Part shown: positions 22,911 through 47,497 of the stretch, piece after piece
How the letters are laid out: each line of letters starts with the position of its first letter
Numbering within the stretch: the first letter of the stretch is position 1
From: Naegleria gruberi
Taxonomy: Eukaryota
Direction: 5' to 3' (one strand)
DNA: 64,000 nucleotides
Assembly (NCBI GenBank): GCA_000004985.1
Contig: GG738925.1
The notes under the pieces: model-generated
What the model saw: the letters and a program-made list of their open reading frames with translations, nothing else
What the model was told of the DNA's origin: nothing
Database searches by the model: none
Made by a program: the position numbers and the translations under genes

Positions 22911-24470
22911 CTACCTTAGGCAAATAATGGACACATCTTTGGGGCATTTGACACTTATTTCAAGAGCATTTTGAGAATTGATTTTGTAAAATTTACACCA
23001 ACCCAACCCGAAATGACTCAAATCCAATTGAATAAATCCAAGAATCGTATCAATGAAAAAGCTACTTTCACACAGCAGCGTTTCACCATTCGAAAGGAAT
23101 TGTAAAGTGCCCTCAAAATGTCCAGTAATCACAAGTGGATTCACATAACTTAGTCTGTACATAATTTTTGGCCGTGTTTTAGTGAGCTTCAAAGCATCTC
23201 GACTAAATTCATAAATTTTGGAGAGAAATTTCAATTTCACTTTCTTAACGAGATGGATTTCTTTTTTGTGGAAGGGAGTAATGGCGCCAAATCCTTCAAG
23301 TGGCAGATAATCATTCCTTGGCATTTTCGAATAGGATTCGTAGACAGCTGTTTCAAATCGGTAAATGAATCTTTTTTCATCAAAGATTGATTTCTTTTTC
23401 TTTGCTCTTCCAATCCAAGTATTTTTCTTCACTTCCAATCCAATTGTTGCATTTCCTCTGCAATTAGTTACCATATTGTGATAGTTTAGAGCTAGCGATG
23501 GATGGAATTTGGACACTAGCTGACATGCCGAATAGAATGAAATGTTACTGAGACGTATTCTTTGAGCTTTCAGAGGGGGTTTAAGATAATTGTTGAAATC
23601 CACATAATACCTCATTGCATCAATCTTTTCATAATTCACATTTTCAACATTGTAAATGGCATTTCCAAATATTACTTTGAAAAACATGAATAATATCTTG
23701 GAATTTGATAGAATGGCACCTCTTCCAGTCTTGATTGAGTAGGAAATCTTTTTCTCTTTCCAATATTTAAATAACTTATCAGTTCCACCATAAATTTCAA
23801 AAACTCCATTCAGCAATCCATTAGAAACCTTTTCATCTGAAAATGTAATCAATTCTGTTAGAAATCCTTGCTTAAACCTCGTTGATATGTTATCTGGTTT
23901 GTCATATTTCCACTCAAGTGAACTATTCTCATTCCATCCTTTCAAATCAGATTTACAAATCAATTTCATTCTCAGAACAGCTTGTTTAGAAATCCAAATT
24001 TCCAATCTGTGAATTAACATATTTGTCTTGATTGGTTCCCAACACATTACCTCACATTCCACTGGCATTTGAATTACAAATTCTGCTTCAATAGTCAACC
24101 CCAGAGACTCCTCAATTTTAACTCTTTTCAATTGTGAATCCAAAATTTCATTTCTAAATTCCTTCTTTAATTTGCCGACAAGATTTTCGACATTTTCAAT
24201 TTGTGGTGGATGTCTCTTGATGAATAGCAATATTTCATCCAGTGTTATTAATTTGGATCGGGTGATGCTATTCCACAATGAACCAAGAAAGGAATCTTGA
24301 AATTGTTTCTTTAATTCAATCGTGAATGTGTCATAATCGATAATTTGATTTTTAGCATCTTTGCTAATTGATGATGATGCCTCCGATAGTGCAAATTTGC
24401 TAATAACTGATGTGAATATTATTGTAAACAATTCTACAAGTCTATTGTGATTACAACAGAAGAAACCCAT
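22911..24470 (-). CDS. hypothetical protein (about 520 aa)
   Basis: Long ORF. First ATG (MGFFCC) at 24470; the track start is GTG. No recognised domain. Confidence 0.5.
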   Translation of the reverse strand: MGFFCCNHNRLVELFTIIFTSVISKFALSEASSSISKDAKNQIIDYDTFTIELKKQFQDSFLGSLWNSITRSKLITLDEILLFIKRHPPQIENVENLVGKLKKEFRNEILDSQLKRVKIEESLGLTIEAEFVIQMPVECEVMCWEPIKTNMLIHRLEIWISKQAVLRMKLICKSDLKGWNENSSLEWKYDKPDNISTRFKQGFLTELITFSDEKVSNGLLNGVFEIYGGTDKLFKYWKEKKISYSIKTGRGAILSNSKILFMFFKVIFGNAIYNVENVNYEKIDAMRYYVDFNNYLKPPLKAQRIRLSNISFYSACQLVSKFHPSLALNYHNMVTNCRGNATIGLEVKKNTWIGRAKKKKSIFDEKRFIYRFETAVYESYSKMPRNDYLPLEGFGAITPFHKKEIHLVKKVKLKFLSKIYEFSRDALKLTKTRPKIMYRLSYVNPLVITGHFEGTLQFLSNGETLLCESSFFIDTILGFIQLDLSHFGLGWCKFYKINSQNALEISVKCPKDVSIICLR

Positions 24471-24633
24471 CACTAACGATGAACACTTCGGCACTTATTT
24501 CAGGATGCAACACAAAATGCTGAAACTTCCAGCAATTTCTGGTTTGGCGCCATAATTATGAAAGATGATGAAAATCTCACACGTCCTAACCATATCTTCA
24601 CACAAAACAAAAAAACCACACAACAACCACACA

Positions 24634-31546: not shown

Positions 31547-33131
31547 ATGTCAGCATCACAAATAGAAGCAAAAGAGGATCAGAGAGCACAAATCGTGATT
31601 CCTATTAATAAAAACTTGAGTAAACACGTTTGGATTAGAGGCTTTACCAATTACAACATCAGTAGACAGACAACAAATGCAGGAATGATTTTTCTTCCCT
31701 CTCCGATTTCATCAAGAAGGAAAACCAAAGTAGCCTTCGGATCAACAGATTATTTTGAGAAATTAAATGTTGAACGGTTATATTCATTCATGGGATATGA
31801 TACTTGGTATTCTAATATAGTAGAGGTTCCGTTTATTGAATTTTCAAGATTGTCATTGTTTGATGATTCGGAATCTTCAGAAGAAATGAATGATCAAGCA
31901 GTAGAGAATGTAGATAATGTAAAGAATGTAGAGAATGTAATGGTTGATGATCTTGTTGAGGATGAATATTTGAATGATGATGATGAATGGATGGACGATG
32001 ATGTTGATGATGAATCATCTGTAATAGAGATTGTGCCAGTTAATGTTGAAGCAAGTGTGGCTGAACAAGTTAAGGAAATGAGAGCCGAGCAAGAGAAAAT
32101 TAGATTTAGAAAATTAATACAGCCAAAACAATTGCTGTCGACAAATTTCAGTGGTACATATTATCCACCTGGAAGAATATTTCAATCAGTTTGTATTGAT
32201 GAAAGGAATAATAATGTTTATGTTTATGGAGGATTTTCAGGGAATAGATCTCCTTGTTCTCTCATTACAAGATTTTCAATTGAAGGTAACGAATTAAAAG
32301 TTGAGGATTTAACTGATTCTTTCCAATTAGTAGAAGCAACAGAAGCCAAAGACAAGCTTGGTAAAACACCTTTCAGAGAGGGACATACGGCAGTAATAAG
32401 GAAAGGAAAAATGTATGTTTTGGCAGGAAATGCTCAACGAACAGGAACTTTTGAAAAGGAATTGTTGGAATTTGATTTGGAAAAAGGAAATATCAAACCC
32501 TACCAGACAATTTGCCTAGGAAAACCATTCACACCAAGAGCTTATCACTCTGCTACATATATTGAAAAACGAGATGTCATGTGTGGTACGTTTTTTATTC
32601 CTTGTCAAGGTATATTAATTTTAATCTGGACAATATTCATCAATAGTTTATGGAGGTAAGATGAAGCCAGGATTACAGTCAGGGGTTTCGAATGAACTAT
32701 TCTTGTTTCATTTTCAAACTCATACTTGGGAAAATATTGAGCTTAGAGATTTCATTTTCCCACCTCTTTCAGGTCATTACATTTTCAAAATTAATAATGA
32801 TAATATAGGGATCATAGGAGGAGTGTCAAAACCATACTCGGAAGAAAAAGAAGATTTAAATTCAAATCTATTTGTTTACAACTTGGAGTATAATTCATTT
32901 TCGGCCATAGATTTGGGACCTTATGGATTCAATGGGAGATATAGCATGCCAGCAGCTTTCAGTGCATCAAATCAACTATTAGCTATTGGGGCTGGAAACA
33001 CCAGTTACAGAGAGGGTGATTTTACAGTCATTTATTTTGAAACTGTGGAAACCAATAGCGAACATTTTGTCAAACCATTGTTGTTGAATTCCTTTGACGA
33101 TGTATCAATAATTTGTCAAACTATGGAATAA
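31547..33131 (+). CDS. Kelch-repeat protein with acidic N-terminal region. Exons join(31547..32585,32647..33131).
   Basis: Kelch-type repeats NNVYVYGGFSG, HTAVIRKGKMYVLAGN, PRAYHSATYIEKRDVMC|VYGGKMKPG, FHFQTHTWENIEL and NNDNIGIIGG. The 61-nt intron TGT G|GTACGT...CAATAG|TT joins two ORFs within a Kelch blade. Confidence 0.7.
32586..32646 (+). other. intron (61 nt) of Kelch-repeat gene
   Basis: GTACGT...AATAG. Phase 1. Reconstitutes the Kelch motif DVMCVYGG. Confidence 0.7.
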
Positions 33132-33208: not shown

Positions 33209-34361
33209 CTAAATATCACTTTCTCCAGCAACGAGTTTAGTTAATTGTTTCATTTCGAGAATGTAATTGAGTCCTTCATCACGAAACTTATTTGCAGAAA
33301 TATCAAGATTCCTTAATTGTTTCATGAGACTAATATACTTAGCTCCCTCATTACCAATAGAATTAAAGGAAATATCAAGTTTTGTTAATTGGTTCATATC
33401 ACTAACATGCTTTGCTCCTTCATCACCAATATAATTATCACAAATGTTGAGATTAGTCAATTGTTTCATTTGTTGACTAATAACTCTTGCTCCTTCATCA
33501 CCAATATCATTCGTGAAACACGAAAGTTTGGTCAACTGTTTCATTCCACAAATGTATTCCATTCCATTCACCAAAATTATTGGCACCGATATTTAGAACA
33601 GTCAATTGTTTCATTTCACTAACGAGTTTCACTCCGTCATCATCAAATATATTTGCAGAAATATTGAGATTGGTCAATTGTTTCATACCACTAAGATGTA
33701 CCACTCCTTGATTACCAATCTTATTGATACAAACATTGAGTTTTGTTAATTGATCCAATTCAGAAATATATTTTGATCCCTTGTCACGAATATTATTTCC
33801 AGAAATATTGAGACTGGTTAATTGTTTCATTGTACTAATATATTCAGCTCCAAAATCATTAATTCTGTTATATGCAATTTTAAGCACTCTCAGTTGTTTC
33901 ATTTCACATATGGATTTAGCTCCCTGATCACATATATCATGATTACTAATATCTAGCATTGTTAATCCTTTCAAATTCTTAATGGAATAAGACAGTTTCT
34001 TATAAACTTTTTCATTATTAATGGAAGACCTTGCAACTTTTAATTTGTAAATATTTTGTAAAAATCTTCCCTCCATTTTCTTGATACAATCACTTTTACA
34101 AATTAATGAAAGTTTCATTCTTTCCAAAATAACAGTCAACCACTGTTTGGAAACGAGTGCACAATTCAACACTAGAAAATTAAAATCATGAAAAGAAAAT
34201 ATTTCACACAAAATATCGGCATAGAAAAGTGGAATATCTTCCTTCAGCTTTTTTGTTTCGGGTGATGATTGATTACAGTTTGATGGATCGAATACTTCTC
34301 TTGTTCGTTTGCTCATTTTTTTTTGATTGTAATTGATCAAACCTTTTTGTAATTGACTCAC
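33209..34361 (-). CDS. F-box plus leucine-rich-repeat (RNase-inhibitor-type LRR) protein. The reading frame is shifted once near 33556..33575.
   Basis: N-terminal F-box-like segment DIPLFYADILCEIFSFHDFNFLVLNCALVSKQW. Roughly 24-aa repeats of the form LxISxNxIGDEGAKYISxMKQLTxL continue across both ORFs (33507..34361 and 33209..33586). The frames switch inside the tandem GAATGGAATGGAATAC. Confidence 0.6.
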
Positions 34362-34817
34362 GAATAATCGTGTTAAATGACTGATGATAAAATTGCAAGA
34401 TCTAATGTTCTGTTCTTTGAGTTAAAGCTTCCGAATAAACAGAATTAACAGAGTATGGGTTGGAGGACCTCTCTAATTATGATGATAGTATTGGGAATTG
34501 TTGTTAGGTATTTAGCTTAGTATGTTGCGGAACTTCTCTTAATTCTTTTGCGACCAAAATCAGTAATTTGTCAATTTGGATTTGATTGGAAGATGCAAAC
34601 AACATTCAAGAAAATTGTGACTATTAATTCAACAATCTAATTGAATCTTAAATATTGTAAAAACAGATTGGATTGTTGAACAAGAAAAACAACATTAAAA
34701 AAATCACACAACTACGATCAAACCCTCTATCTGAACCAAAACTCAAAATCATCGAGTGCATTGTTTATACCATATTTGGAATATTACTATTCTTGCAAGT
34801 TAAAAGTTATTGTAAAA

Positions 34818-36725
34818 ATGTTATCTCATTACTCTAAATTAAGTATCATAACCTTCGTGGTCTTTCTCCGCCTTGTTATGATCACCAATGCTTACTTGCC
34901 TTACACTGAGACTCATCCAATGAAATTTGACACACAATTCTCCATTTCCCTTACTAGCTCAAACACTATACTAAAGCCAGGTCCAATTACTAGATATTCT
35001 GATGCATACGAAAAGGCAATTGCTTTCTTTAGAAATCAGTATGGTCTCGATATTGCTGGAAATGGCACTCGTTTGCCATCTGGTTGTGGGCTATTTACAG
35101 GAACCAATTCTGAATATGTTGTCAATTATGCCAAAGTTCGTGGTTTTCAAATTGTGGCTGGTAGTCAGGATGTTGGAGTCCATGAGGATTCGTTCAGAAT
35201 TGTGGTAAGTGGGCCGATTGTTTCGAATGGAAATTATGGAAAGAATGGCGCCTTAATTGATTCAAATTCAGTTTTACATTTTGGATTTTATACCTTCTTT
35301 TGGAGAAGTAATGGAACAGTTCTATTTCCAAGAGTAATTTACTCTGGAATGATGCCAATCAAGGTCAATTCTAATTCTTCCATGATTAATTTCCAATTGA
35401 CGTCCAGTTTATTTGGTCAAGGATATGCTCGTGGTTCTATTTTACAAAGAACTAATCCACAAAATGGAAAATTGTTTACAACCATTATCAGTTCTCATTC
35501 CTACCAAATGTCAATCACTGATTTCTCTCCAAAATGTTCAGTAATTACCTCTGAAAAGGATATCTTCAATGAGGATATTGTAATCAAGTGGAATAATGTG
35601 CTATTGAGTGTGATTCGTGATTTGAAGGTATCTGCTCCAATAGCTTCAAGACAATTGGCTATTCTTCACTCTGCTATTGATGATTCGCTGGTTGACTGTA
35701 AGAATTTCTCTTCAAATTGCTCTCGTTCCACTTTAGTGTCCATTATTTCACATGCTGCTAGTCGAGTATTGAAAAGTTTATACCCAACTCAAATAGATTG
35801 TTTCAATGCTGCTTTGAAAAGTGCTTTAGAATGCAATGAATGCAAAGAAGTATCCATTCCTTATTTGGAAAATATCGGAAAGCCAGGAATTTTGGCAGCT
35901 GACAGAATATTAAAAGAAAGACAAGATGATGGAAGTTTGGACTTTACAGAATATCATTTCTCTGATGGTTTTATGAATTATCAATCACATGCTCCAAACT
36001 TTGTAAGAATTCCACTACTTCCTCATTGGTCAACTGTAAAACCATTTGTCATTCAAAATGCTTCATTGTATGATCAAGGACCACCTCCACCAATTGACTC
36101 ACCAATATTTGAAAAAGATTACAATGAAACTCTTCATTTTGGAAGAGAAGATTCGAGTGTGAGAACTCAAGATCAAAGAAAAATTGCGTTATTTTGGGCT
36201 GATGGAGCTGGAACGAGTACTTCACTCGGACATTGGCTCATTATTTTACAAAACATTATTCGAAATCAGAATATTAAGGATACCTTTCGAATATCTACCT
36301 TATTTAAAGTATTGACAATTACAATGGCAGATGCTGCAATTGTTTGTTGGAATCACAAGTATAAGTACAATGCCTTTCGTCCAATCACAGTCATAACTGA
36401 AAGAGAAAGCAATGAATGGTCACCACTCTTGTCAACTCCTGCATTTCCTGAATATTCTTCAGGTCACTCAACTCTATCTGCTGCTGCTTCGACAGTATTG
36501 AGCTTATTATTTGGCTCTGACGAAATATCCTTTGAGAGCGTTTCTGAGGGTCTAATTCACACCATTCGAAAGTTCACTAAATTATCAGAGGCAGCCAAAG
36601 AAGCTGGCAAGTCAAGAATTTATGGTGGAATTCACTTTGAATATGCCAATCAAGCAGGGTTCGGTTCTGGCATTGCCATTGCTCAAACCGTCTTTCACAA
36701 ATTATGCAATTTTACCACGTGTTAA
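34818..36725 (+). CDS. Secreted PAP2-superfamily protein, vanadium-haloperoxidase/acid-phosphatase-like
   Basis: Signal-peptide-like MLSHYSKLSIITFVVFLRLVMITNA. C-terminal catalytic signature KYKYNAFRP (KxxxxxxRP), PEYSSGHS (PSGH) and SRIYGGIHFEYAN (SRxxxxxH). ATG in an A-rich context at 34818 within ORF 34761..36725. Confidence 0.7.
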   Translation: MLSHYSKLSIITFVVFLRLVMITNAYLPYTETHPMKFDTQFSISLTSSNTILKPGPITRYSDAYEKAIAFFRNQYGLDIAGNGTRLPSGCGLFTGTNSEYVVNYAKVRGFQIVAGSQDVGVHEDSFRIVVSGPIVSNGNYGKNGALIDSNSVLHFGFYTFFWRSNGTVLFPRVIYSGMMPIKVNSNSSMINFQLTSSLFGQGYARGSILQRTNPQNGKLFTTIISSHSYQMSITDFSPKCSVITSEKDIFNEDIVIKWNNVLLSVIRDLKVSAPIASRQLAILHSAIDDSLVDCKNFSSNCSRSTLVSIISHAASRVLKSLYPTQIDCFNAALKSALECNECKEVSIPYLENIGKPGILAADRILKERQDDGSLDFTEYHFSDGFMNYQSHAPNFVRIPLLPHWSTVKPFVIQNASLYDQGPPPPIDSPIFEKDYNETLHFGREDSSVRTQDQRKIALFWADGAGTSTSLGHWLIILQNIIRNQNIKDTFRISTLFKVLTITMADAAIVCWNHKYKYNAFRPITVITERESNEWSPLLSTPAFPEYSSGHSTLSAAASTVLSLLFGSDEISFESVSEGLIHTIRKFTKLSEAAKEAGKSRIYGGIHFEYANQAGFGSGIAIAQTVFHKLCNFTTC

Positions 36726-36872: not shown

Positions 36873-39800
36873 ATGTCTGCAACATCAGCTGCCTCAACAT
36901 CCGACAATACAAAGAAGAGAAAAACATCATTGATGATGGAAGCCTCGGAGGCTACTGAAATTTTTGAAAATGATCAGAATGAAAAGTTGATTGATGAAAT
37001 TTCTGATGCGTTGCATAGATTGTCCCTCCAGAAGCAAACTGAAGAAATGATCAAGAAATTGGTCGAGCAAAAAGATCAAACAAGTGGTGAGAGTAAGAAA
37101 TCATCCACTTTTGATAAACTTGCAATTCTTCAACAAATGCAACAGGAAGAGATGGTAGTGTTAAAAGTTGGTGGTATGTTGTGTGAAATTGTATTTTTAA
37201 CAATCAATTTATTATGATGATTGACAGGTAAATTCTTTTATACAACAATGAAAACTTTGATGGGTGAAAGAGGTAACTCTAAAGTTCAAACAAAGAAAAT
37301 TATTATTGCTGATAAAGTTGGTAAAGCAACTGCTGGTAAGAAGAGAGGTGAAGATGAAGAAGATGAAGAAATGGATGAAGGTGGCGATGAAGAAGGTGGT
37401 GATGAAATGGATGAAGATGGTGAAAGACCAAAAGAAGACGGTATCTCATCACTTGAATATGTTTGTGCTCAAGATAACTTGTTTAAAGTCATGTTTGATT
37501 CTGGTTTTGGTATTGAAAGAGATGAAGCAAACAAGTCTGCAATTTCATTCCCTGACAGAAATCCAGATTATTTCGAATATATTTTAGAACACTTAAGACA
37601 AGGTGGTAAAGTTAAATCTTTGGGTATTGAAAAGTTGAATGCTGACGAATTAGAAAATATTTTAGAAGAATCAAGATATTTTGCAACTGAAAAGTTATCA
37701 GAATATATCTTATTCTTACTTGACAAGTATCACAAATATGATTCAAATTTATCTAATTATGCTGAAATTGAAGAAATTTTGAATGATTCTGTACAAAATT
37801 TGAAAAAGGTTGAAATTCCACTCGAACAAATTCAACAAAGACTCAAATCATTTGAAGATTCAATCAACGAATCCAAGAAGAGTGTTGGTGAATATTCACG
37901 CAAATTGGTTGAACAATATCAAAACTTTATTTTAGGTACTGATTTAGAAAGTGATTTATCTGTAAAGATTGATGTTTCAGGTCAAATTTTCACAATTCCA
38001 TTCACAAGTTTGAGAAAGTATGAGAATTTCCTCCTTTCAAAATACATCTTATCACCAAACTTTGGTTTAAATGAAAATGGTTGTGTATTTATTGATAGAA
38101 ATCCAAAGTTATTTGCCCTTATTCATGGTTACATTATCAGTGGTGGTAAATTTAATCATTTCCCAAAGAATCTTTCACAAGAAAAGAAACTTCAATTGAA
38201 ACAAGAAGCTGAATTCTATGGTTTGACAACACTTGTTCAAGAATATCTTGATCCACTTCGTTATCCAGTTGAAAAGATTGGTAAAGATAATATTGAATTG
38301 AAAGAAAAGGAAGATAAATTGAGAGAAATCTTTGCAAAGGAAAGAGAATCACCATTATTGAATGATCCATATCTTTTATTATCACCCCTCTTCCAAAATT
38401 TAGAAGAAATTAAGAATCAAGAAAAGTATAGAATTGATATTGGTCACTGTCCAAAATTATTAGATTTAACAGATAAGACTAGATATTCTAGACAAGTTTC
38501 TAAACCAAGACTTGTTAATAATTTGAATGGTTTCAAATTGAATTGGCATAGATTCACTCAAGGTGCTTTGGATGGTCTTGATTGGAATAATGTTTTTGCT
38601 GCAGGTGGCGGTATTCTTGGTTGTTGTTTGAAAGATGATAATTTTGATAATAATACTGCAGTCTCAACAATTTATCCAACTTCTGTTAATGAAAGAACTG
38701 AAACAAATACTTCAAGAGCAGTATCAGTCATTGATGATGAAAATGATGAAAATGAAGCTGCTGATTTTGGTTTTTGGAGAAGATTTTCAAAGAAGGCAAC
38801 AACTAAATCTACAGGTGAAGAAGGAGATGAAGAAGAGGAAGAAGAAACAGAACAAAAACAAGAAGTTATTAGCAAGTATCCAATTGGTAGATTCCACAAT
38901 TTAGATTCTATGGGTAATTCTACTTTATACAGTCAATATAGCAGTCATTCCTATGCAAGTCTTGATCAAAGAAAGGCCCGTTCCTCTGAACTTGCTAAAA
39001 CTATTTCTGAATCCACTACCTCAAACAAGGAAAATGCTCGTTTTATCCCTGATGCCAACATTCCTGCTCCATTTAAAAAATCAGATATCGATCTTTTCTT
39101 ATATGCTTTGAGTGAAGAAGAAGCTGAAGAAAAGATTAAACATATTTATCAAACTATCAAGAAGAATATGAGTAGAAGATTATTAATGAATTATGCTGGA
39201 GATAAGATGGAACATAAGGGCTACTATTCTCATTTGAAGGATGAAGAGAAAGCTAAATGTATTTATCAAGATGGTATTATTAGAACTGAAGAAGGTACTT
39301 TGATCAATGATGACGTTTTGGTTGTTAGAACTAAATTTGCTGTCACATTCTATTGTTACAAACTCAGACCAATTCAAGTTGTTTTGAGAATTTACAAATC
39401 ACCTGCAGAAGTTTTGTTAGGTTTTGATATTGATTGTGCAACTATGGGTTTTGATGGAAATCAAGTTTGGTCAAGTGCAAGAGCAAGAAGAGCTTTAATG
39501 TATCATACTAATCTTGTTGATGTTGATAGACAATCTACAACTTATGAATATAGATTGTACAAGTATAGTAAGAGAGGTTTCTCTGTTTCAATTCCAGGTT
39601 ATGATACTGCTAAAGTTCAAAATCAATTGTTACAATATCCACGTAGATTCCCATTCACTTCAACTGAATATTTGTTGCACGGTTTAGCAAGACTTATTGC
39701 TTTTGATAATTCTTGTCGTGCTAAGAATCCAAAACATATTTTAGGTGTTTATGATGATCGTGATCCAAATGCAGCTCAATTAAGAGAAGAAAATAAGGCT

Positions 39801-40787
39801 CTCATCCTTTCTGGTGAATTGAATGTAAAGTCAGACTATCTTGATTTGAATATTATCAAATCATATAAGTATCCTCCAAGCTTTATCTTTACTACTTTAG
39901 AAAAGACTCGTCAGATTGTATCACTTATTAATTTGAAACCTGAAGAACAAAGAGACATTAAGAATTGGCGTGATAGAGAAAAGATTAGAAGAACTTTCAG
40001 AAAAGGAGAAAGTGTTAAATTTGATAGTAGATTGAAAAATAATACTAATATCAAAATGGAAAGAGATCCAGATTGGAAACCTCACTTTATTTATTCTTTG
40101 AATGATATTGATACTGTTCTCAATAGTGAAAAGTTTGATGCAAGAATCTCCAACAAGATTCAATTCCTTACCGTTGATCCAGGAACTCAGAAAATTGGTT
40201 CCTTCCATCCAAAGGATATTAACTTTTATAGAGATGCCTATCAACCAGTTCCATTCTCTAAATTACCAATTTTGAAGGAAGCCAAGATGAGAACTGTTTG
40301 GTTCAAGGCAATGACTGAACTCCCTCCTCAACATGTTATCGACGAAAGAGAAAAACATGTTAAGGAAAATACAAACCAATACGGTTTTTATAATGATAAT
40401 AAGGATTACACCAAGGATCCATTCGAAGAAAGATATCAAAAATTCTCAATGTCCAGACCAAATCCAAATTCACAAAACATCTATGACAAGTGGGTTCAAG
40501 AAGAAATTTGGTTTGAAGCATTCACACCAGAAGAAAGCAACAAGATTGAACAAGAGTTTAGAAAGTTTATTGTTTATGGAAATCCTGAAAGCTTTGCAAT
40601 TTCAGGATCTGAACTTATTGACTTCTCCTATTGGAGACTCTTCCTTGATAGTAACCATCCAACTCATCCAAACACTGCTGCTGCCTTGCATAGAAAGAAT
40701 TTCTGTGAATCTGGTCATTACTTTGGAGGAATTGATGAAGATCAAGTTGGTACTGTTACAACCCTCTCTTACAGATCTTTCTATTAA
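36873..40787 (+). CDS. Large protein with two T1/BTB (K-channel-tetramerisation-type) domains. Exons join(36873..37173,37228..40787).
   Basis: A 54-nt intron GGT G|GTATGT...TGACAG|GT joins ORFs 36873..37217 and 37221..40787 (the second starts at TTG in the track). T1/BTB-like segments FKVMFDSGFGIERDEANKSAISFPDRNPDYFEYILEHLRQGG and VKIDVSGQIFTIPFTSLRKYENFLLSKYIL...GCVFIDRNPKLFALIHGYIISGG. Acidic D/E tracts. The remaining roughly 800 aa are unassigned. Confidence 0.65.
37174..37227 (+). other. intron (54 nt)
   Basis: GTATGT...GACAG. Phase 1. Both sides encode Gly. Confidence 0.65.
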
Positions 40788-41814: not shown

Positions 41815-43917
41815 ATGAAAGAAATACCTATTTCAAACGACAGGATGTCACTTCAAAAAAAAATGGTCAACAAGGTTTGCCTATTAATTCTGCTTGCTGT
41901 GTCTCTGTTGCTCTTTGCTTCAGTCACTTGTGAGAATATTGTCTATTCTACTACAACCTACATGGATGGAACGCTCGTTCCTTCATTCGAAACTAATGTT
42001 GAAACTAACCTATTCAACTCTACCAATCCAAACTCCAGATCCCTCCAAGAAGATTGTACATTGTGTCCAGTTGGTGGTGATTGCACATGTGCAGGTACTT
42101 GTCCAGTTTCTTCATATGATTACAAGGACTTTTTCATCAAGACAACTTGTCCAAATGGTTTCTACTTGACTTCCTTGAGTCTTCAATGTAGAACAAGTGT
42201 TATTGGTGATTCAAAAGTTTTTATTCTTTCTCCAAGTGAATTTGATATTTACAAGGCAGATGATACGAAACTTCCAGCTATTCGATTCAACACTAATAAT
42301 TGTATTGATTATCGTTTTAACATTACAGAAGATCAAACTCTTGTTTACTATTGGTTAGATTTAAGACCTGCTGTGTATACAGCAAAGTGGTGGTTTAAAT
42401 TTGTTGGAACTTGCAACAAAATTCAAGCTGGTCAACCTGTCAGAATGGATGTTCAGCCGTCAGTTGTTACCTTAACAAACACAACATTTTTTGACATTTC
42501 AACAACTCTATACGATAGAAACAATATCATCGCTGGTAATGCAGAAGGAGAAATGCGTCTTGTTGTTGATCCAGCTCAAAATCAAGGTTTCCAATTAACA
42601 AGTAGCTCACCAGTTTTGTGGGGAAACTCAACTTTTAAATTAATGAAATTCAAAACAGCTCTTCCACAAGTTGTGTACCAAGTGTTCTATACGAATGGTA
42701 ACTATTCCATTAACGAAACAAGAACCATGAATATGACAGGAGATCAAGTTACATTCATTTGTAACATTCCAAAATATATGATTATTAATCAAGTAGTGAA
42801 TGTTGATTTCGCTCTTGTGGATAGTCAAAATCAAGTAGTCCAATCTGTGAGTTCTAATTTTGCTAAACTTGGTTCTCCACAACTTGGTTCAGATTGCATG
42901 TATTATTTAACAACTGAAGGTATCTTTCGATATGTTTCACCAGCAGAAAGAGATATTCCATTAACAAGAGGAAGAGGCTCAATGACTTTGAGAGCTCCAA
43001 TGACTGTAAGAAGTAATAGTTTTTACATTGATCTCTATTACATGCTACGTACGAAAACTTATTTCACATTCGAAACAACTGGACCTCCATATGATGCACA
43101 AATCACTATTATTGATGGAGAGTTTGGAAGTGGAACAGATACTGCATTCTCAGTTTCAATTTATGATGGAAAAATGGAATATAGTCCCTCACTTGTTAAG
43201 GCATGTTCAGATGTTGTGAAAATTGTTTCAGATCCTCCATTAGAAGGGTTTCCAGTGGAAAGTAAGGCAGTGGAGGGAGTTGCTTTGTTTAATACCATGT
43301 TAATTAGTGATCCTAGAAATATCAAGTTGCAAATACTTGTCAATAATCAAGCATTGACAAGTAAGAATGTTAGAGTTGGAGATAATGTCAAGTTAGCTCT
43401 TTCAGTTGACAAGTATTTGATATCACCAGGTGATTCATTCTATGGAAATATCTCAATTTATGACATGTTTGATAACTTTTTAAACATGTCTACTGGAAAT
43501 GCATTCCTTAACATTACCTATAATGGAAATCAATTCATGAAAATTAATTCCAAAGTTGTTAATGGATTTTGCATGTTTTCACCAAGTTCAATTCCAAAAA
43601 TTTACACTTCTCGAGTTTACATTCAAGCTGGATTCTACAGTCAATTCAACCAATTATTCCTATCAGAAACATTTGAAATGCAAGTTTACAATTTGTCACC
43701 TTACCCTACTCCAAAACCAACCATTAGTCCAATGATGAGTAAAAAGGCAGAACACTCAAGTGGTGGTAATAATCCAACAAATCCATCTAAACCTTTGAAT
43801 TCTGTTCAAATTCCAGCCATCAAATCCAATAATCAAAGAATTAACAATGCCAATTCTGTTAACATTGGTTCTGTAATTCTTCTTGTGTTCTTCCTCTTTT
43901 TGATAAGCATGCATTAA
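41815..43917 (+). CDS. Ser/Thr/Asn-rich surface/secreted protein with N-terminal signal peptide, Cys-rich module and C-terminal hydrophobic anchor
   Basis: MVNKVCLLILLAVSLLLFASVTC signal-like segment. CTLCPVGGDCTCAGTCPVSSYDY Cys cluster. Many N-x-S/T sites. C-terminal IGSVILLVFFLFLISMH (GPI-like or TM). Confidence 0.55.
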   Translation: MKEIPISNDRMSLQKKMVNKVCLLILLAVSLLLFASVTCENIVYSTTTYMDGTLVPSFETNVETNLFNSTNPNSRSLQEDCTLCPVGGDCTCAGTCPVSSYDYKDFFIKTTCPNGFYLTSLSLQCRTSVIGDSKVFILSPSEFDIYKADDTKLPAIRFNTNNCIDYRFNITEDQTLVYYWLDLRPAVYTAKWWFKFVGTCNKIQAGQPVRMDVQPSVVTLTNTTFFDISTTLYDRNNIIAGNAEGEMRLVVDPAQNQGFQLTSSSPVLWGNSTFKLMKFKTALPQVVYQVFYTNGNYSINETRTMNMTGDQVTFICNIPKYMIINQVVNVDFALVDSQNQVVQSVSSNFAKLGSPQLGSDCMYYLTTEGIFRYVSPAERDIPLTRGRGSMTLRAPMTVRSNSFYIDLYYMLRTKTYFTFETTGPPYDAQITIIDGEFGSGTDTAFSVSIYDGKMEYSPSLVKACSDVVKIVSDPPLEGFPVESKAVEGVALFNTMLISDPRNIKLQILVNNQALTSKNVRVGDNVKLALSVDKYLISPGDSFYGNISIYDMFDNFLNMSTGNAFLNITYNGNQFMKINSKVVNGFCMFSPSSIPKIYTSRVYIQAGFYSQFNQLFLSETFEMQVYNLSPYPTPKPTISPMMSKKAEHSSGGNNPTNPSKPLNSVQIPAIKSNNQRINNANSVNIGSVILLVFFLFLISMH

Positions 43918-45538: not shown

Positions 45539-47497
45539 ATGCCGTGTGATACCAATAATGACGCCTCTGACACCGTTGCCTCCGCACCAGCATCATTCAT
45601 GTACGAAGAAATAACATGTAATGAGCTTCTACTGCTTCATTCATATAATTCACAAATTAAAAAGTGGATAAAAACTGACGCTCATGAAAATACTCATGAA
45701 TTTTATATGGAACGGGAAGATTCCGATGATGATGATGATGATGAAGATGATGAAGATTATGTAGAGGATAATCAAGTTGATGATGAAGAAAAGGTTGATA
45801 ATGAAAAGAATTTATTCGAAAGAAGAATGATATTTAATTCTGTGAGGGGTAGAACTACAGAACTTGGATATTTGGATCCGTGTGATGATTATCACATCAG
45901 AGAATATAATGATGATTGGGGACGTGTGGAGGAAGTTGAGGAAATTAATATTGGACTATTTTATAATCACCTTTCGAATGAAAATTTTGTAGAGGAGAGG
46001 GAAAAGTTTACCTATGAATGGAAAGATAACATTCTCTGTTTTAGAATAATGCCATATGATTTTGACTCTTTGGGAAAATATGACATGATGAAAGTTATTG
46101 GTGAGATTGAGAATGAAAATTATGCGAAACAATTTGTTGAGGAACAGATTGAATATACGAAATCACCAGAAACAAAGGTCAATTATATGGAATTTGTGAA
46201 TAATCATGCCATTGTTTCAGTATTTGATTATCTTGATACATGTTTCTTGTTGAAAACATGCTCAAAAGTTTCTTCGGAATGGCACAAAATGTTGTTTTAC
46301 AATTCACATATTCAAAATCATATTTTCAAAGGTAGATTACTGGATTTATTCGATGGACAATTTGACCATTTGAGTCGCTTGAATGAGTTTTATAATTTGA
46401 ATTGGTTGGAAACTTATCTGATGAGTGGTGCGTTCGTTTTTGAAATGTTTCAAGAGGGATTGTTAGGTCAATTGGAACACTTTGCTCATTTAAATGCAGT
46501 TGAAGTAGAGCAATTCTTTTACATTGTTCTCAAATTAGATCCTCTTCCTCATCTGGTTGATGATTTGAAGGATGATCATCCACTGATTAATAGATTGAAA
46601 CTCTTACCCCCAAAGAGAGTACTGTTCAGTGTTAATACTCTACCAGAGGTAAAGAGAATGGTATTCAAAAGAGGATTTTTAACACATCTTTTGAGTGTGG
46701 AAGATAATTGTGATCCTGAAGTAGTGATGGAAAAAATTCTTATGGCCAAATGTGTAATTCCAATTCAAGATTGCGAATTTTCAGTAGATTTCAAGAAGGG
46801 AATTTCTTTATATGACGAATTTTTGAAAGAACTTTCTTCAAAATTATTATCATTTAGAATACCATCAAAAAAGACAGATTCAGAATTGGATTGGGCTGCC
46901 AATTGTCTCTGTGAAATGAGAGAAAAGGCTAGCTATTTCATTCACAATATTATTCCCGCCCATCCATTTACCAAGCTTTGTGTGGATGATGATATTCTCA
47001 TTGGACTCCATCTACTCTTACTCGATAACATTTATTCTAAAATTGACTTTCTAACAAACATTCCAATCCTCAACTTTTTGGAATTATTGGAAAATAGAAA
47101 GAGGAATGAATTGACCAATATCAAATCCCTCCTTCCTGAAAAATTCCAATCCAACCTATTTGAAATGATGTTACAAGAACCATCACCATATCAATTTACA
47201 TCTGATTCTCTCACTCCATTTAATCAACCATCAAATTTATTAGAATTTTTAACAGAACATGTTATTGAACCGAGTGAAATTTATCAAGAAAATAGAAAAT
47301 TCTCTGAATGGATTGATAGGGATATTGAGGAATATTTGAAATTCATTAAAACATTCCACACCAAGTCAATTACACCACCTAAACATGTTGACATGTTATT
47401 TCACTTTCACATGTTACATCCAAACAATTACATGCCAGATTGTTTGAGAATTGCAAGATCAATCAAGAATCACAAATTTAACTTTATTAAAAATTAA
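45539..47497 (+). CDS. F-box-like domain protein with poly-Asp/Glu tract (652 aa)
   Basis: Poly-A ATG context. Internal F-box-like segment HAIVSVFDYLDTCFLLKTCSKVSSEWHKML. DDDDDDEDDED tract. Confidence 0.5.
   Translation: MPCDTNNDASDTVASAPASFMYEEITCNELLLLHSYNSQIKKWIKTDAHENTHEFYMEREDSDDDDDDEDDEDYVEDNQVDDEEKVDNEKNLFERRMIFNSVRGRTTELGYLDPCDDYHIREYNDDWGRVEEVEEINIGLFYNHLSNENFVEEREKFTYEWKDNILCFRIMPYDFDSLGKYDMMKVIGEIENENYAKQFVEEQIEYTKSPETKVNYMEFVNNHAIVSVFDYLDTCFLLKTCSKVSSEWHKMLFYNSHIQNHIFKGRLLDLFDGQFDHLSRLNEFYNLNWLETYLMSGAFVFEMFQEGLLGQLEHFAHLNAVEVEQFFYIVLKLDPLPHLVDDLKDDHPLINRLKLLPPKRVLFSVNTLPEVKRMVFKRGFLTHLLSVEDNCDPEVVMEKILMAKCVIPIQDCEFSVDFKKGISLYDEFLKELSSKLLSFRIPSKKTDSELDWAANCLCEMREKASYFIHNIIPAHPFTKLCVDDDILIGLHLLLLDNIYSKIDFLTNIPILNFLELLENRKRNELTNIKSLLPEKFQSNLFEMMLQEPSPYQFTSDSLTPFNQPSNLLEFLTEHVIEPSEIYQENRKFSEWIDRDIEEYLKFIKTFHTKSITPPKHVDMLFHFHMLHPNNYMPDCLRIARSIKNHKFNFIKN

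What the first reader, a model, noticed from the sequence alone, without database searches (positions are those of the whole stretch)
34818..36725. Secreted vanadium-haloperoxidase/PAP2-like enzyme with a novel roughly 350-aa N-terminal region
The C-terminal third has the complete KxxxxxxRP / PSGH / SRxxxxxH catalytic signature (KYKYNAFRP, PEYSSGHS, SRIYGGIHFEYAN) of the PAP2 haloperoxidase/acid-phosphatase clade. That clade is typical of bacteria, fungi and algae. The protein is preceded by a signal peptide and a large unassigned Cys-containing region. Extracellular halogenating or phosphatase chemistry in this organism would be of ecological interest.
Basis: partly seen in the sequence, partly recalled or inferred. 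Interest (0 to 1): 0.5.

Follow-up and report, generated by a model that had tools for sequence, protein, structure and literature searches.

The report
Naegleria secreted vanadium-haloperoxidase-like fusion enzyme
An intact gene of the amoeba Naegleria gruberi encodes a probably secreted enzyme: its last ~385 residues are a bacterial-type vanadium haloperoxidase with a complete active site, and they are joined to a ~220-residue beta-rich domain with no known relatives; its chemistry is untested.

The parts
34818..36725 (+). Complete intron-less CDS (635 aa + stop) of a Naegleria gruberi gene
   Evidence: ORF list. First ATG after the upstream in-frame stop at 34677. 100% identity and 100% coverage to the N. 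gruberi predicted protein P0001.
34818..34892 (+). Probable cleavable signal peptide, aa 1-25 (MLSHYSKLSIITFVVFLRLVMITNA | YLP)
   Evidence: Highest hydropathy of the protein at aa 8-22; small residues at -3/-1 (T, A). Orthologues have the equivalent ...SHA|Y...TQA|Y...VHA|Q. This is a heuristic; no SignalP run was possible.
34893..35552 (+). N-domain, aa 26-245: a lineage-restricted beta-rich domain with no family assignment; predicted beta-barrel plus one helix
35565..36722 (+). Vanadium-haloperoxidase-type catalytic domain, aa 250-635 (N-terminal helical bundle ~250-370, connecting region, C-terminal PAP2 bundle ~429-629)
   Evidence: Bacterial homologues align from D253/W258 to the end. 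AF2 pLDDT is mostly >90. Foldseek: 4USZ E 2e-17, TM(target) 0.76, 408 columns. Profile vs PDB: 4CIT 1.6e-70.
36357..36383 (+). PAP2 motif 1, K514-x6-R521-P522 (preceded by C510-W511)
   Evidence: Aligns with Zobellia VIPO1 C320-W321...K324...R331-P. K is present in 41/42 and R-P in 42/42 homologues.
36447..36470 (+). PAP2 motif 2, P544-E-Y-S-S548-G549-H550-S (F543 immediately before)
   Evidence: Aligns with Zobellia F353, S358-G359-H360. The R521->S548 spacing is 27, the same as in 4CIT. H is present in 41/42 homologues.
36612..36650 (+). PAP2 motif 3, S599-R600-x5-H606 (putative vanadate-ligating histidine)
   Evidence: Aligns with Zobellia R410 and H416. The H550->R600 spacing is 50, the same as in 4CIT. 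H606 is invariant in 42/42 homologues.

Best explanation
This is a functional nuclear gene of Naegleria gruberi for a secretory-pathway enzyme made of two modules.

Module 2 (aa 250-635) is a vanadium-dependent haloperoxidase (VHPO) domain of the bacterial, Zobellia-VIPO-like type. It was acquired long ago from a bacterium and has since taken on the host's base composition.

Inferred mechanism, by homology:
- Vanadate is bound covalently to His606.
- It is held by hydrogen bonds from Lys514, Arg521, Ser548, Gly549 and Arg600.
- H2O2 forms a peroxovanadate.
- His550 and Lys514 activate it.
- A halide (I-/Br-, possibly Cl-) is oxidised to hypohalous acid next to Trp511 and Phe543.

Module 1 (aa 26-245) lies between the signal peptide and the catalytic domain. 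It is of eukaryotic origin, is a beta-barrel-type domain, and also exists alone as a small secreted protein in other, unidentified eukaryotes. Most likely it binds a small molecule or a target surface and so decides where the oxidant acts.

Shown here: gene integrity, homology, fold, presence of all catalytic residues, domain boundaries, purifying selection on both modules, and restriction of the fusion to Naegleria-type sequences.

Inferred: secretion, vanadate binding, halide oxidation, and the role of the N-domain.
For: - Identity to an N. gruberi protein, with eukaryotic neighbours (RCC1-BTB, Kelch, LRR, BTB_2, F-box). GC3 is 0.27 against 0.21-0.31 for the neighbours.
- PAP2 scores above its Pfam cut-off, with weak VCPO_N and VCPO_2nd hits. 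4CIT E 8.9e-36 for the single sequence. The family profile hits 4CIT at 1.6e-70 and CiVCPO at 5e-39; all 18 hits are VHPOs or NapH-type proteins, and none is an acid phosphatase.
- The high-confidence AF2 model of aa 250-635 matches 4USZ/4CIT over 408 columns (TM 0.76), then NapH1, CiVCPO, XhnO11 and NapH3. Acid phosphatases match only one bundle, at E~1e-3.
- All first-sphere residues are present, with spacing identical to 4CIT, and are conserved in 41-42 of 42 homologues.
- Bacterial relatives carry signal peptides directly before the DVVxxWN start, and often carry extracellular modules (PPC, CARDB, FG-GAP, Big_13, dockerin).
- The Naegleria-type clade is monophyletic in 100/100 NJ bootstraps. 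The best outside identities are 41-38%, all bacterial.
- dN/dS is 0.17 for the VHPO domain and 0.20 for the N-domain.
- The N-domain is absent from bacterial homologues and their flanks. It is present alone in P0043, P0044, P0046 and P0047.
Against: - No biochemical data exist for this protein or for any member of its closest bacterial clade. The nearest characterised enzyme (Zobellia VIPO1) is only ~25% identical over the whole domain.
- VHPOs and PAP2 acid phosphatases share the same active-site residues, so sequence cannot exclude phosphatase activity. NapH3 shows that VHPO-fold proteins can do non-halogenating chemistry (one search hit list).
- The window copy is the most derived of the five fused proteins. 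It has 8 unique substitutions at columns conserved in >=85% of homologues, including S469-L470 in the otherwise near-invariant GTxTPPGHW loop. That loop is modelled at only pLDDT 64.
- The signal peptide rests on heuristics, and R18 sits inside the hydrophobic core.
Confidence: 0.6

Rival explanations
1. The protein works as a secreted or lysosomal acid phosphatase (phosphomonoesterase) that uses His606 as the nucleophile, with no vanadium, like class A non-specific acid phosphatases of the same PAP2 superfamily.
For: The active-site residues are shared between the two enzyme classes. Apo-VCPO can form a phospho-histidine intermediate (PDB 3BB0 is in the hit list). Several database sources name homologues 'membrane-associated phospholipid phosphatase' or 'Phosphatidic acid phosphatase'. 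The Pfam hit above threshold is the general PAP2 model.
Against: The architecture is the two-bundle, ~385-aa VHPO type, not the ~210-230-aa single bundle. The family profile finds no acid phosphatase at E<=1e-3, while VHPOs score down to 1e-70. Foldseek matches to acid phosphatases are about 14 orders of magnitude weaker and cover half the domain. The Asp at His+4 of phosphatase motif 3 (HxxxD) is Ala610 here. From established knowledge, the phosphatase activity of apo-VHPOs is low.
Confidence: 0.2
2. It is a VHPO-fold protein that has been recruited to non-halogenating or vanadium-independent chemistry (as NapH3 was), or to a binding-only role. The window copy would be a diverging paralogue.
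For: NapH3 is among the structural matches. The window copy carries 16 deviations at highly conserved columns, 8 of them unique, against 8-9 in three of the other four fused proteins (15 in the N. gruberi paralogue P0004). In the N-domain it has lost the otherwise conserved VDC cysteine and the PMPM motif. dN/dS of its N-domain against P0002/P0003 is higher (0.30-0.34).
Against: Every first-sphere residue is retained. dN/dS stays well below 1 in both domains.
Confidence: 0.12
3. The gene is bacterial contamination of the assembly, or a decaying pseudogene.
For: The nearest relatives of the catalytic domain are all bacterial.
Against: It lies in a 64-kb stretch of typical eukaryotic genes and has the same GC/GC3 as they do. 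It has a paralogue in N. gruberi, an orthologue in N. lovaniensis and two environmental low-GC relatives. It carries a eukaryote-only N-domain. The reading frame is intact and under purifying selection.
Confidence: 0.02

Closest known systems
Zobellia galactanivorans vanadium iodoperoxidase Zg-VIPO1 (PDB 4CIT/4USZ)
   Same: Best sequence and structure match. It is a ~400-aa two-helical-bundle enzyme. Motif spacing is identical (R->S 27, H->R 50). The same Cys-Trp precedes the Lys, and the same Phe lies 7 residues before the His. Motif 3 has Ala at His+4.
   Different: Only ~25% identity over the full domain (about 40% in the C-terminal half). Zobellia Tyr263 corresponds to Gly465 here (alignment). 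The Naegleria protein has an extra 220-aa N-domain and extra cysteines, and it comes from a eukaryote. Halide specificity is unknown.
Uncharacterised bacterial VHPO-like clade (Cyanobacteria, Acidobacteriota/Thermoanaerobaculia, Planctomycetota, Verrucomicrobiota)
   Same: 35-41% identity over aa ~250-630. Shared signature FWADGAGTxTPPGHW. These are secreted proteins, often fused to extracellular modules.
   Different: None carries the N-domain. Bacterial proteins have a longer loop (NADxDGNPxTxxDPxW) where Naegleria has a ~9-residue deletion. None has been studied biochemically, to my knowledge.
Curvularia inaequalis vanadium chloroperoxidase (PDB 1IDQ/1VNC)
   Same: Same fold and the same first-sphere residues (K353/R360/S402/G403/H404/R490/H496 by established knowledge). 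Same Trp/Phe pair at the halide site. It is a secreted eukaryotic enzyme. Profile E 5e-39.
   Different: 17% identity and TM ~0.5. It has 609 aa with different insertions and no beta-rich N-domain.
Class A non-specific acid phosphatases (E. blattae 1D2T, Salmonella PhoN 2A96)
   Same: Same PAP2 motifs and the same C-terminal bundle.
   Different: A single bundle of ~220 aa. They are matched only weakly (Foldseek E ~1e-3; no profile hit). They have the HxxxD motif, which is absent here.
Dirigent proteins / allene-oxide-cyclase-like beta-barrels, including beta-barrel Diels-Alderases (AtDIR6 5LAL, AOC2 1Z8K, PyrI4 7DVK, AbnU 7DVI, Cyc15 8OF7)
   Different: 6-11% identity. No Pfam or sequence-profile link. 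Foldseek is not significant. The N-domain is ~70 residues longer, with an extra helix. The similarity may reflect generic up-and-down barrel topology only.

Membership tests
Vanadium-dependent haloperoxidase (VHPO; PAP2_haloperoxidase, cd03398 type) | Three PAP2 motifs KxxxxxxRP / (P)SGH / SRxxxxxH, in order and with family-typical spacing | tested here: met
   K514-R521-P522, S548-G549-H550 and S599-R600-H606. Spacing is identical to 4CIT. Pfam PAP2 scores 33.6 bits against a cut-off of 27.2.
Vanadium-dependent haloperoxidase (VHPO; PAP2_haloperoxidase, cd03398 type) | Two helical bundles: a variable N-terminal bundle plus a conserved C-terminal bundle (described in PMC4859513) | tested here: met
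   The AF2 model of aa 250-635 has pLDDT mostly >90. Foldseek covers 408 columns of the 410-415-residue 4CIT/4USZ chains, TM 0.75-0.76. The profile aligns with chain positions 57-448 of 4CIT.
Vanadium-dependent haloperoxidase (VHPO; PAP2_haloperoxidase, cd03398 type) | Axial histidine ligand plus the Lys/Arg/Ser/Gly/Arg hydrogen-bond shell and the catalytic His | tested here: met
   H606, K514, R521, S548, G549, R600 and H550 align with H416, K324, R331, S358, G359, R410 and H360 of Zg-VIPO1. They are conserved in 38-42 of 42 homologues. This is a sequence-level test only; model coordinates could not be inspected.
Vanadium-dependent haloperoxidase (VHPO; PAP2_haloperoxidase, cd03398 type) | Pfam VHPO-specific models (VCPO_N PF17897, VCPO_2nd PF22778) above the gathering score | tested here: inconclusive
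   VCPO_2nd scores 19.1 bits (cut-off 27) and VCPO_N 15.6 bits (cut-off 29.3) in my scan. The database's precomputed list does give PF22778 for this protein and all homologues.
Vanadium-dependent haloperoxidase (VHPO; PAP2_haloperoxidase, cd03398 type) | Binds vanadate and oxidises halide with H2O2 | not testable with these tools
   Requires recombinant protein and enzyme assays.
Class A bacterial non-specific acid phosphatase (PAP2) | Single ~210-230-aa helical bundle; motif 3 extended to SRxxxxxHxxxD | tested here: not met
   The domain has ~385 aa and two bundles. Ala610 lies at His+4. No acid-phosphatase chain is hit at E<=1e-3 with the family profile.
Dirigent / AOC-barrel-like superfamily (for the N-domain) | Eight-stranded antiparallel beta-barrel of AOC/dirigent topology | tested here: inconclusive
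Dirigent / AOC-barrel-like superfamily (for the N-domain) | Sequence membership (Pfam Dirigent, Allene_ox_cyc, AOC_like or related models) | tested here: not met
   No such Pfam hit at E<=10 for any of 9 members. No PDB sequence hit to any such chain at E<=10.

The most novel reading that the evidence does not exclude
The N-domain is a dirigent/pericyclase-type beta-barrel that captures an organic substrate (or a prey-surface molecule) next to the vanadate site. One secreted polypeptide would then couple generation of hypohalous acid with regio- or stereocontrol of what gets halogenated, cyclised or coupled. This would be a single-chain version of the plant 'oxidase + dirigent protein' logic, assembled in a bacterivorous amoeboflagellate from a bacterial enzyme and a eukaryotic barrel. 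It would imply either halogenated specialised metabolites or a targeted, myeloperoxidase-like killing device in Naegleria.
Probability: 0.15. Interest if true: 0.75.

Novelty: new variant of a known kind. Interest (0 to 1): 0.45.

Why it matters
Vanadium haloperoxidases have been studied in algae, fungi and bacteria. I found no paper in the held library that treats one from Naegleria or any other heterotrophic amoeba.

If the enzyme is active, a free-living bacterivore would be making hypohalous acids outside the cell or in its endomembrane system. That bears on predator-prey chemistry, on natural organohalogen formation in soil and fresh water, and on differences between Naegleria species (no N. 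fowleri homologue appeared among the hits).

The N-domain is a new, conserved, very rare protein family. Solving or testing it could show how VHPO oxidant output is directed, which is an open issue for selective VHPOs.

The gene is also a clean example of bacterial gene acquisition followed by domain fusion and duplication in a eukaryote.

Tried and rejected
- NCBIfam scan of the protein: no family.
- Pfam at E<=10 on all nine N-domain sequences: only scattered single-member noise.
- N-domain profile against PDB sequences: noise only (a designed TPR and similar). P0045 from the representative search is the same TPR low-complexity artefact.
- The AFDB50 fold library was not available.
- Full-length AF2 did not model the N-domain (pLDDT <50). 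It had to be remodelled alone with nine sequences.
- Scans for more N-domain loci found nothing: two metagenome-contig scans and one viral-contig scan.
- A third protein-database search with the five-sequence profile returned the same set.
- The Zobellia VIPO paper could not be read. Its residue numbers are therefore from my memory, checked against the 4CIT alignment offset.
- The look-up of encoding contigs had no record for P0001 or P0004, so the apparently missing signal peptide of the N. gruberi paralogue could not be checked.
- The donor lineage could not be resolved. The sister group of the Naegleria clade changes between bootstrap replicates.
- Bacterial contamination was considered and rejected.

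Full report
**1. Observation**

The window is Naegleria gruberi nuclear DNA. GC is ~33% throughout. The translated ORF is 100% identical over 100% of its length to the NCBI/UniProt 'predicted protein [Naegleria gruberi]' (P0001).

The ORF runs from 34818 to 36725 on the + strand. The ATG at 34818 is the only ATG after the in-frame stop at 34677, and the stop codon is at 36723-36725. No intron is needed: the translation aligns without breaks to its relatives.

The neighbours are ordinary eukaryotic genes: RCC1-BTB, Kelch, LRR, BTB_2, F-box and DUF4116. The gene's GC (0.366) and GC3 (0.27) fall within the neighbours' range (GC3 0.21-0.31). It is therefore a resident gene, not contamination.

**2. 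The catalytic domain and its true extent**

- Pfam PAP2 is above its curated cut-off (33.6 vs 27.2 bits, aa 499-627). There are sub-threshold hits to the two VHPO-specific models: VCPO_2nd, and VCPO_N at aa 245-295.
- The best solved relative is the Zobellia galactanivorans vanadium iodoperoxidase, 4CIT (E 8.9e-36, aa 399-629).
- Bacterial homologues of 413-535 aa cover 59-60% of the query at 35-41% identity. In the multiple alignment they start at D253/W258, immediately after their own signal peptides.
- A profile of all 42 homologues hits 4CIT at E 1.6e-70 over chain positions 57-448, and Curvularia VCPO at 5e-39. All 18 hits at E<=1e-3 are VHPOs or NapH proteins; no acid phosphatase appears.
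- The AF2 model is confident for aa 250-635, with most 10-residue blocks above 90.
- Foldseek aligns it over 408 columns with 4USZ/4CIT (E 2e-17, TM 0.76 normalised to the target). NapH1, CiVCPO, XhnO11 and NapH3 follow. Single-bundle acid phosphatases appear only at E~1e-3.

The haloperoxidase-type fold therefore occupies aa ~250-635, not just the 'C-terminal third'. The unassigned region is ~220 aa, not ~350 aa.

**3. Active site**

I used the alignment and the offset of 8 between 4CIT chain index and published numbering. The published numbers are from my memory of Fournier et al. 2014, which I could not read here. The mapping is:

| Naegleria | Zg-VIPO1 |
|---|---|
| W511 | Trp321 |
| K514 | Lys324 |
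| R521 | Arg331 |
| F543 | Phe353 |
| S548 / G549 / H550 | Ser358 / Gly359 / His360 |
| R600 | Arg410 |
| H606 | His416 |
| C510 | Cys320 |

The spacings R->S (27) and H->R (50) are identical in the two proteins. Across the 42 homologues these positions are conserved in 38-42 sequences; R521, P522 and H606 are invariant.

Zobellia Tyr263 corresponds to Gly465, inside a clade-specific FWADGAGTxTPPGHW signature.

The Asp at His+4 typical of phosphatase motif 3 is Ala610 here. This position also varies among true VHPOs, so it does not discriminate.

**4. The N-domain (aa 26-245)**

It has no Pfam or NCBIfam match and no PDB sequence match.

phmmer against 1.84 billion representative proteins found only two real relatives besides the query itself: P0043 (E 2e-18) and P0044 (7e-5). 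P0045 is TPR noise. A profile search added P0046 and P0047.

These four are 214-307-aa proteins with their own signal peptides. They lie on ~1-kb contigs of 41-50% GC with a stop codon after the domain. The domain therefore exists as a stand-alone secreted protein in other, unidentified organisms.

The fusion to a VHPO is seen in only five sequences among 5.8 billion clusters:
- the window gene;
- an N. gruberi paralogue (55% identity; NCBI name 'PAP2_haloperoxidase domain-containing protein');
- an N. lovaniensis orthologue (50%);
- two low-GC environmental sequences (62-63%).

A profile of the N-domain finds nothing in 46 bacterial VHPO homologues, nor in six-frame translations of their ~3-kb flanks, nor elsewhere in the window.

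dN/dS between the two environmental sequences (dS 0.40, unsaturated) is 0.20 for the N-domain and 0.17 for the catalytic domain. Both modules are constrained.

Foldseek gives no significant match; AtDIR6 is at rank 25.

I conclude that it is a beta-barrel-type, probably ligand-binding domain. The resemblance to dirigent or pericyclase barrels is a lead, not an established homology.

**5. Origin**

The closest catalytic-domain relatives in 185,579 prokaryotic species genomes are Cyanobacteria, Acidobacteriota/Thermoanaerobaculia, Planctomycetota and Verrucomicrobiota. They match at 35-41% identity over aa ~250-630; 594 relatives were found. No other eukaryote appears among the protein hits.

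In an NJ analysis of 85 sequences and 392 columns, the five Naegleria-type sequences are monophyletic in 100/100 bootstraps. Their sister group is unstable.

The most economical history has four steps:
- one old transfer of a secreted bacterial VHPO gene into the Naegleria lineage, before the gruberi/lovaniensis split;
- insertion of a eukaryotic barrel domain between signal peptide and enzyme;
- addition of lineage-specific cysteines;
- later duplication.

The donor cannot be named. No viral intermediate was found.

**6. Mechanism**

Shown: the points above.

Inferred from established VHPO chemistry (summarised in PMC11871015 and PMC4859513):
- Vanadate binds to His606 and to the Lys/Arg/Ser/Gly/Arg shell.
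- H2O2 gives a peroxovanadate.
- A halide attacks it to give HOX, which halogenates or oxidises nearby substrates.

The Trp511/Phe543 pair is the VCPO/VIPO-type rather than the VBPO-type pair (own knowledge). Halide preference cannot be read from sequence.

Several features fit a secretory-pathway protein: the signal peptide, eight N-x-S/T sequons, extra cysteines, and the absence of any other hydrophobic segment. Whether it ends up outside the cell or in phagolysosomes is unknown.

Bacterial relatives are commonly fused to extracellular binding modules (PPC, CARDB, FG-GAP/VCBS, Big_13, dockerin). A targeting or substrate-binding role for the Naegleria N-domain would fit that pattern.

**7. 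Rivals**

- Acid phosphatase activity cannot be excluded, because the active site is shared. The architecture and all profile and fold rankings favour VHPO.
- A NapH3-like change of chemistry is possible, especially for this copy. It is the most derived of the five: 16 deviations at >=85%-conserved columns, 8 of them unique (A273, S290, S469, L470, V525, a deletion at 533, A542, L553).
- Contamination or a pseudogene is rejected.

**8. Novelty and verdict**

The protein is already in public databases as an unnamed prediction, and its paralogue carries an automatic PAP2_haloperoxidase label. The VHPO assignment as such is therefore not new.

Three things appear to be unreported in the held literature:
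- a VHPO family in a heterolobosean amoeba;
- its bacterial ancestry;
- its fusion to a very rare, unannotated beta-barrel domain that also exists alone.

I classify it as a new variant of a known kind, of moderate interest (0.45). The interest would rise if the barrel proves to direct the halogenating chemistry.

Noticed in passing
window 34818-36725 (aa 90, 191-193, 240, 469-470): The window copy has lost the cysteine of the otherwise conserved 'VDC' motif in the N-domain (here 'INF') and the 'PMPM' motif (here 'MPIK'). It has a unique Cys90 ('SGCGL'), which may be a relocated disulfide partner for the conserved Cys240. It also replaces the near-invariant Pro-Pro of GTxTPPGHW by Ser-Leu.
   Followed up: partly
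L002 82-939, L003 151-990, L004 112-951 (P0044, P0047; also P0046): Stand-alone N-domain proteins (279-307 aa, signal peptide, contigs of ~41% GC) carry a Met/Gly-rich insert (e.g. MQMMGDDMSMMGSGVGGMPGEGDMGGMM) that resembles Cu(I)-binding 'Mets' motifs. The source organism is unknown.
   Followed up: no
L006 (uncultured cyanobacterium), L029, L036, L017, L031: In several bacteria the homologous VHPO domain sits inside very long ORFs (1167-2063 aa). Oscillatoria and Microcoleus versions have a ~170-aa N-terminal extension that is unrelated to the Naegleria N-domain.
   Followed up: partly
window 33209-34361 (-): The LRR protein upstream, on the opposite strand, is split into two overlapping ORFs (33209-33586 and 33507-34361). 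This suggests a short intron or a frameshift. The repeat unit 'MKQLTxLxIxxNxIGxEGAK' is repeated many times.
   Followed up: no
window 31547-33131 (+): The Kelch-repeat protein is encoded by two abutting ORFs in different frames (31547-32659 and 32661-33131). Probably one gene with an intron or a frameshift.
   Followed up: no
window 36873-40787 (+): Downstream are a 114-aa ORF and a 1188-aa ORF that almost abut. The long one has two BTB_2 (T1-type) domains, acidic low-complexity stretches, and a large C-terminal region with no Pfam match.
   Followed up: partly
window 41815-43917, 45539-47497, 22911-24494: Three long ORFs (700, 652 and 527 aa) have no Pfam family at E<=0.001.
   Followed up: no
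protein hits: No Naegleria fowleri protein appears among the homologues, although N. gruberi (two copies) and N. lovaniensis do. This may be a lineage difference between the pathogenic and non-pathogenic species. It was not verified against N. fowleri genomes.
   Followed up: no
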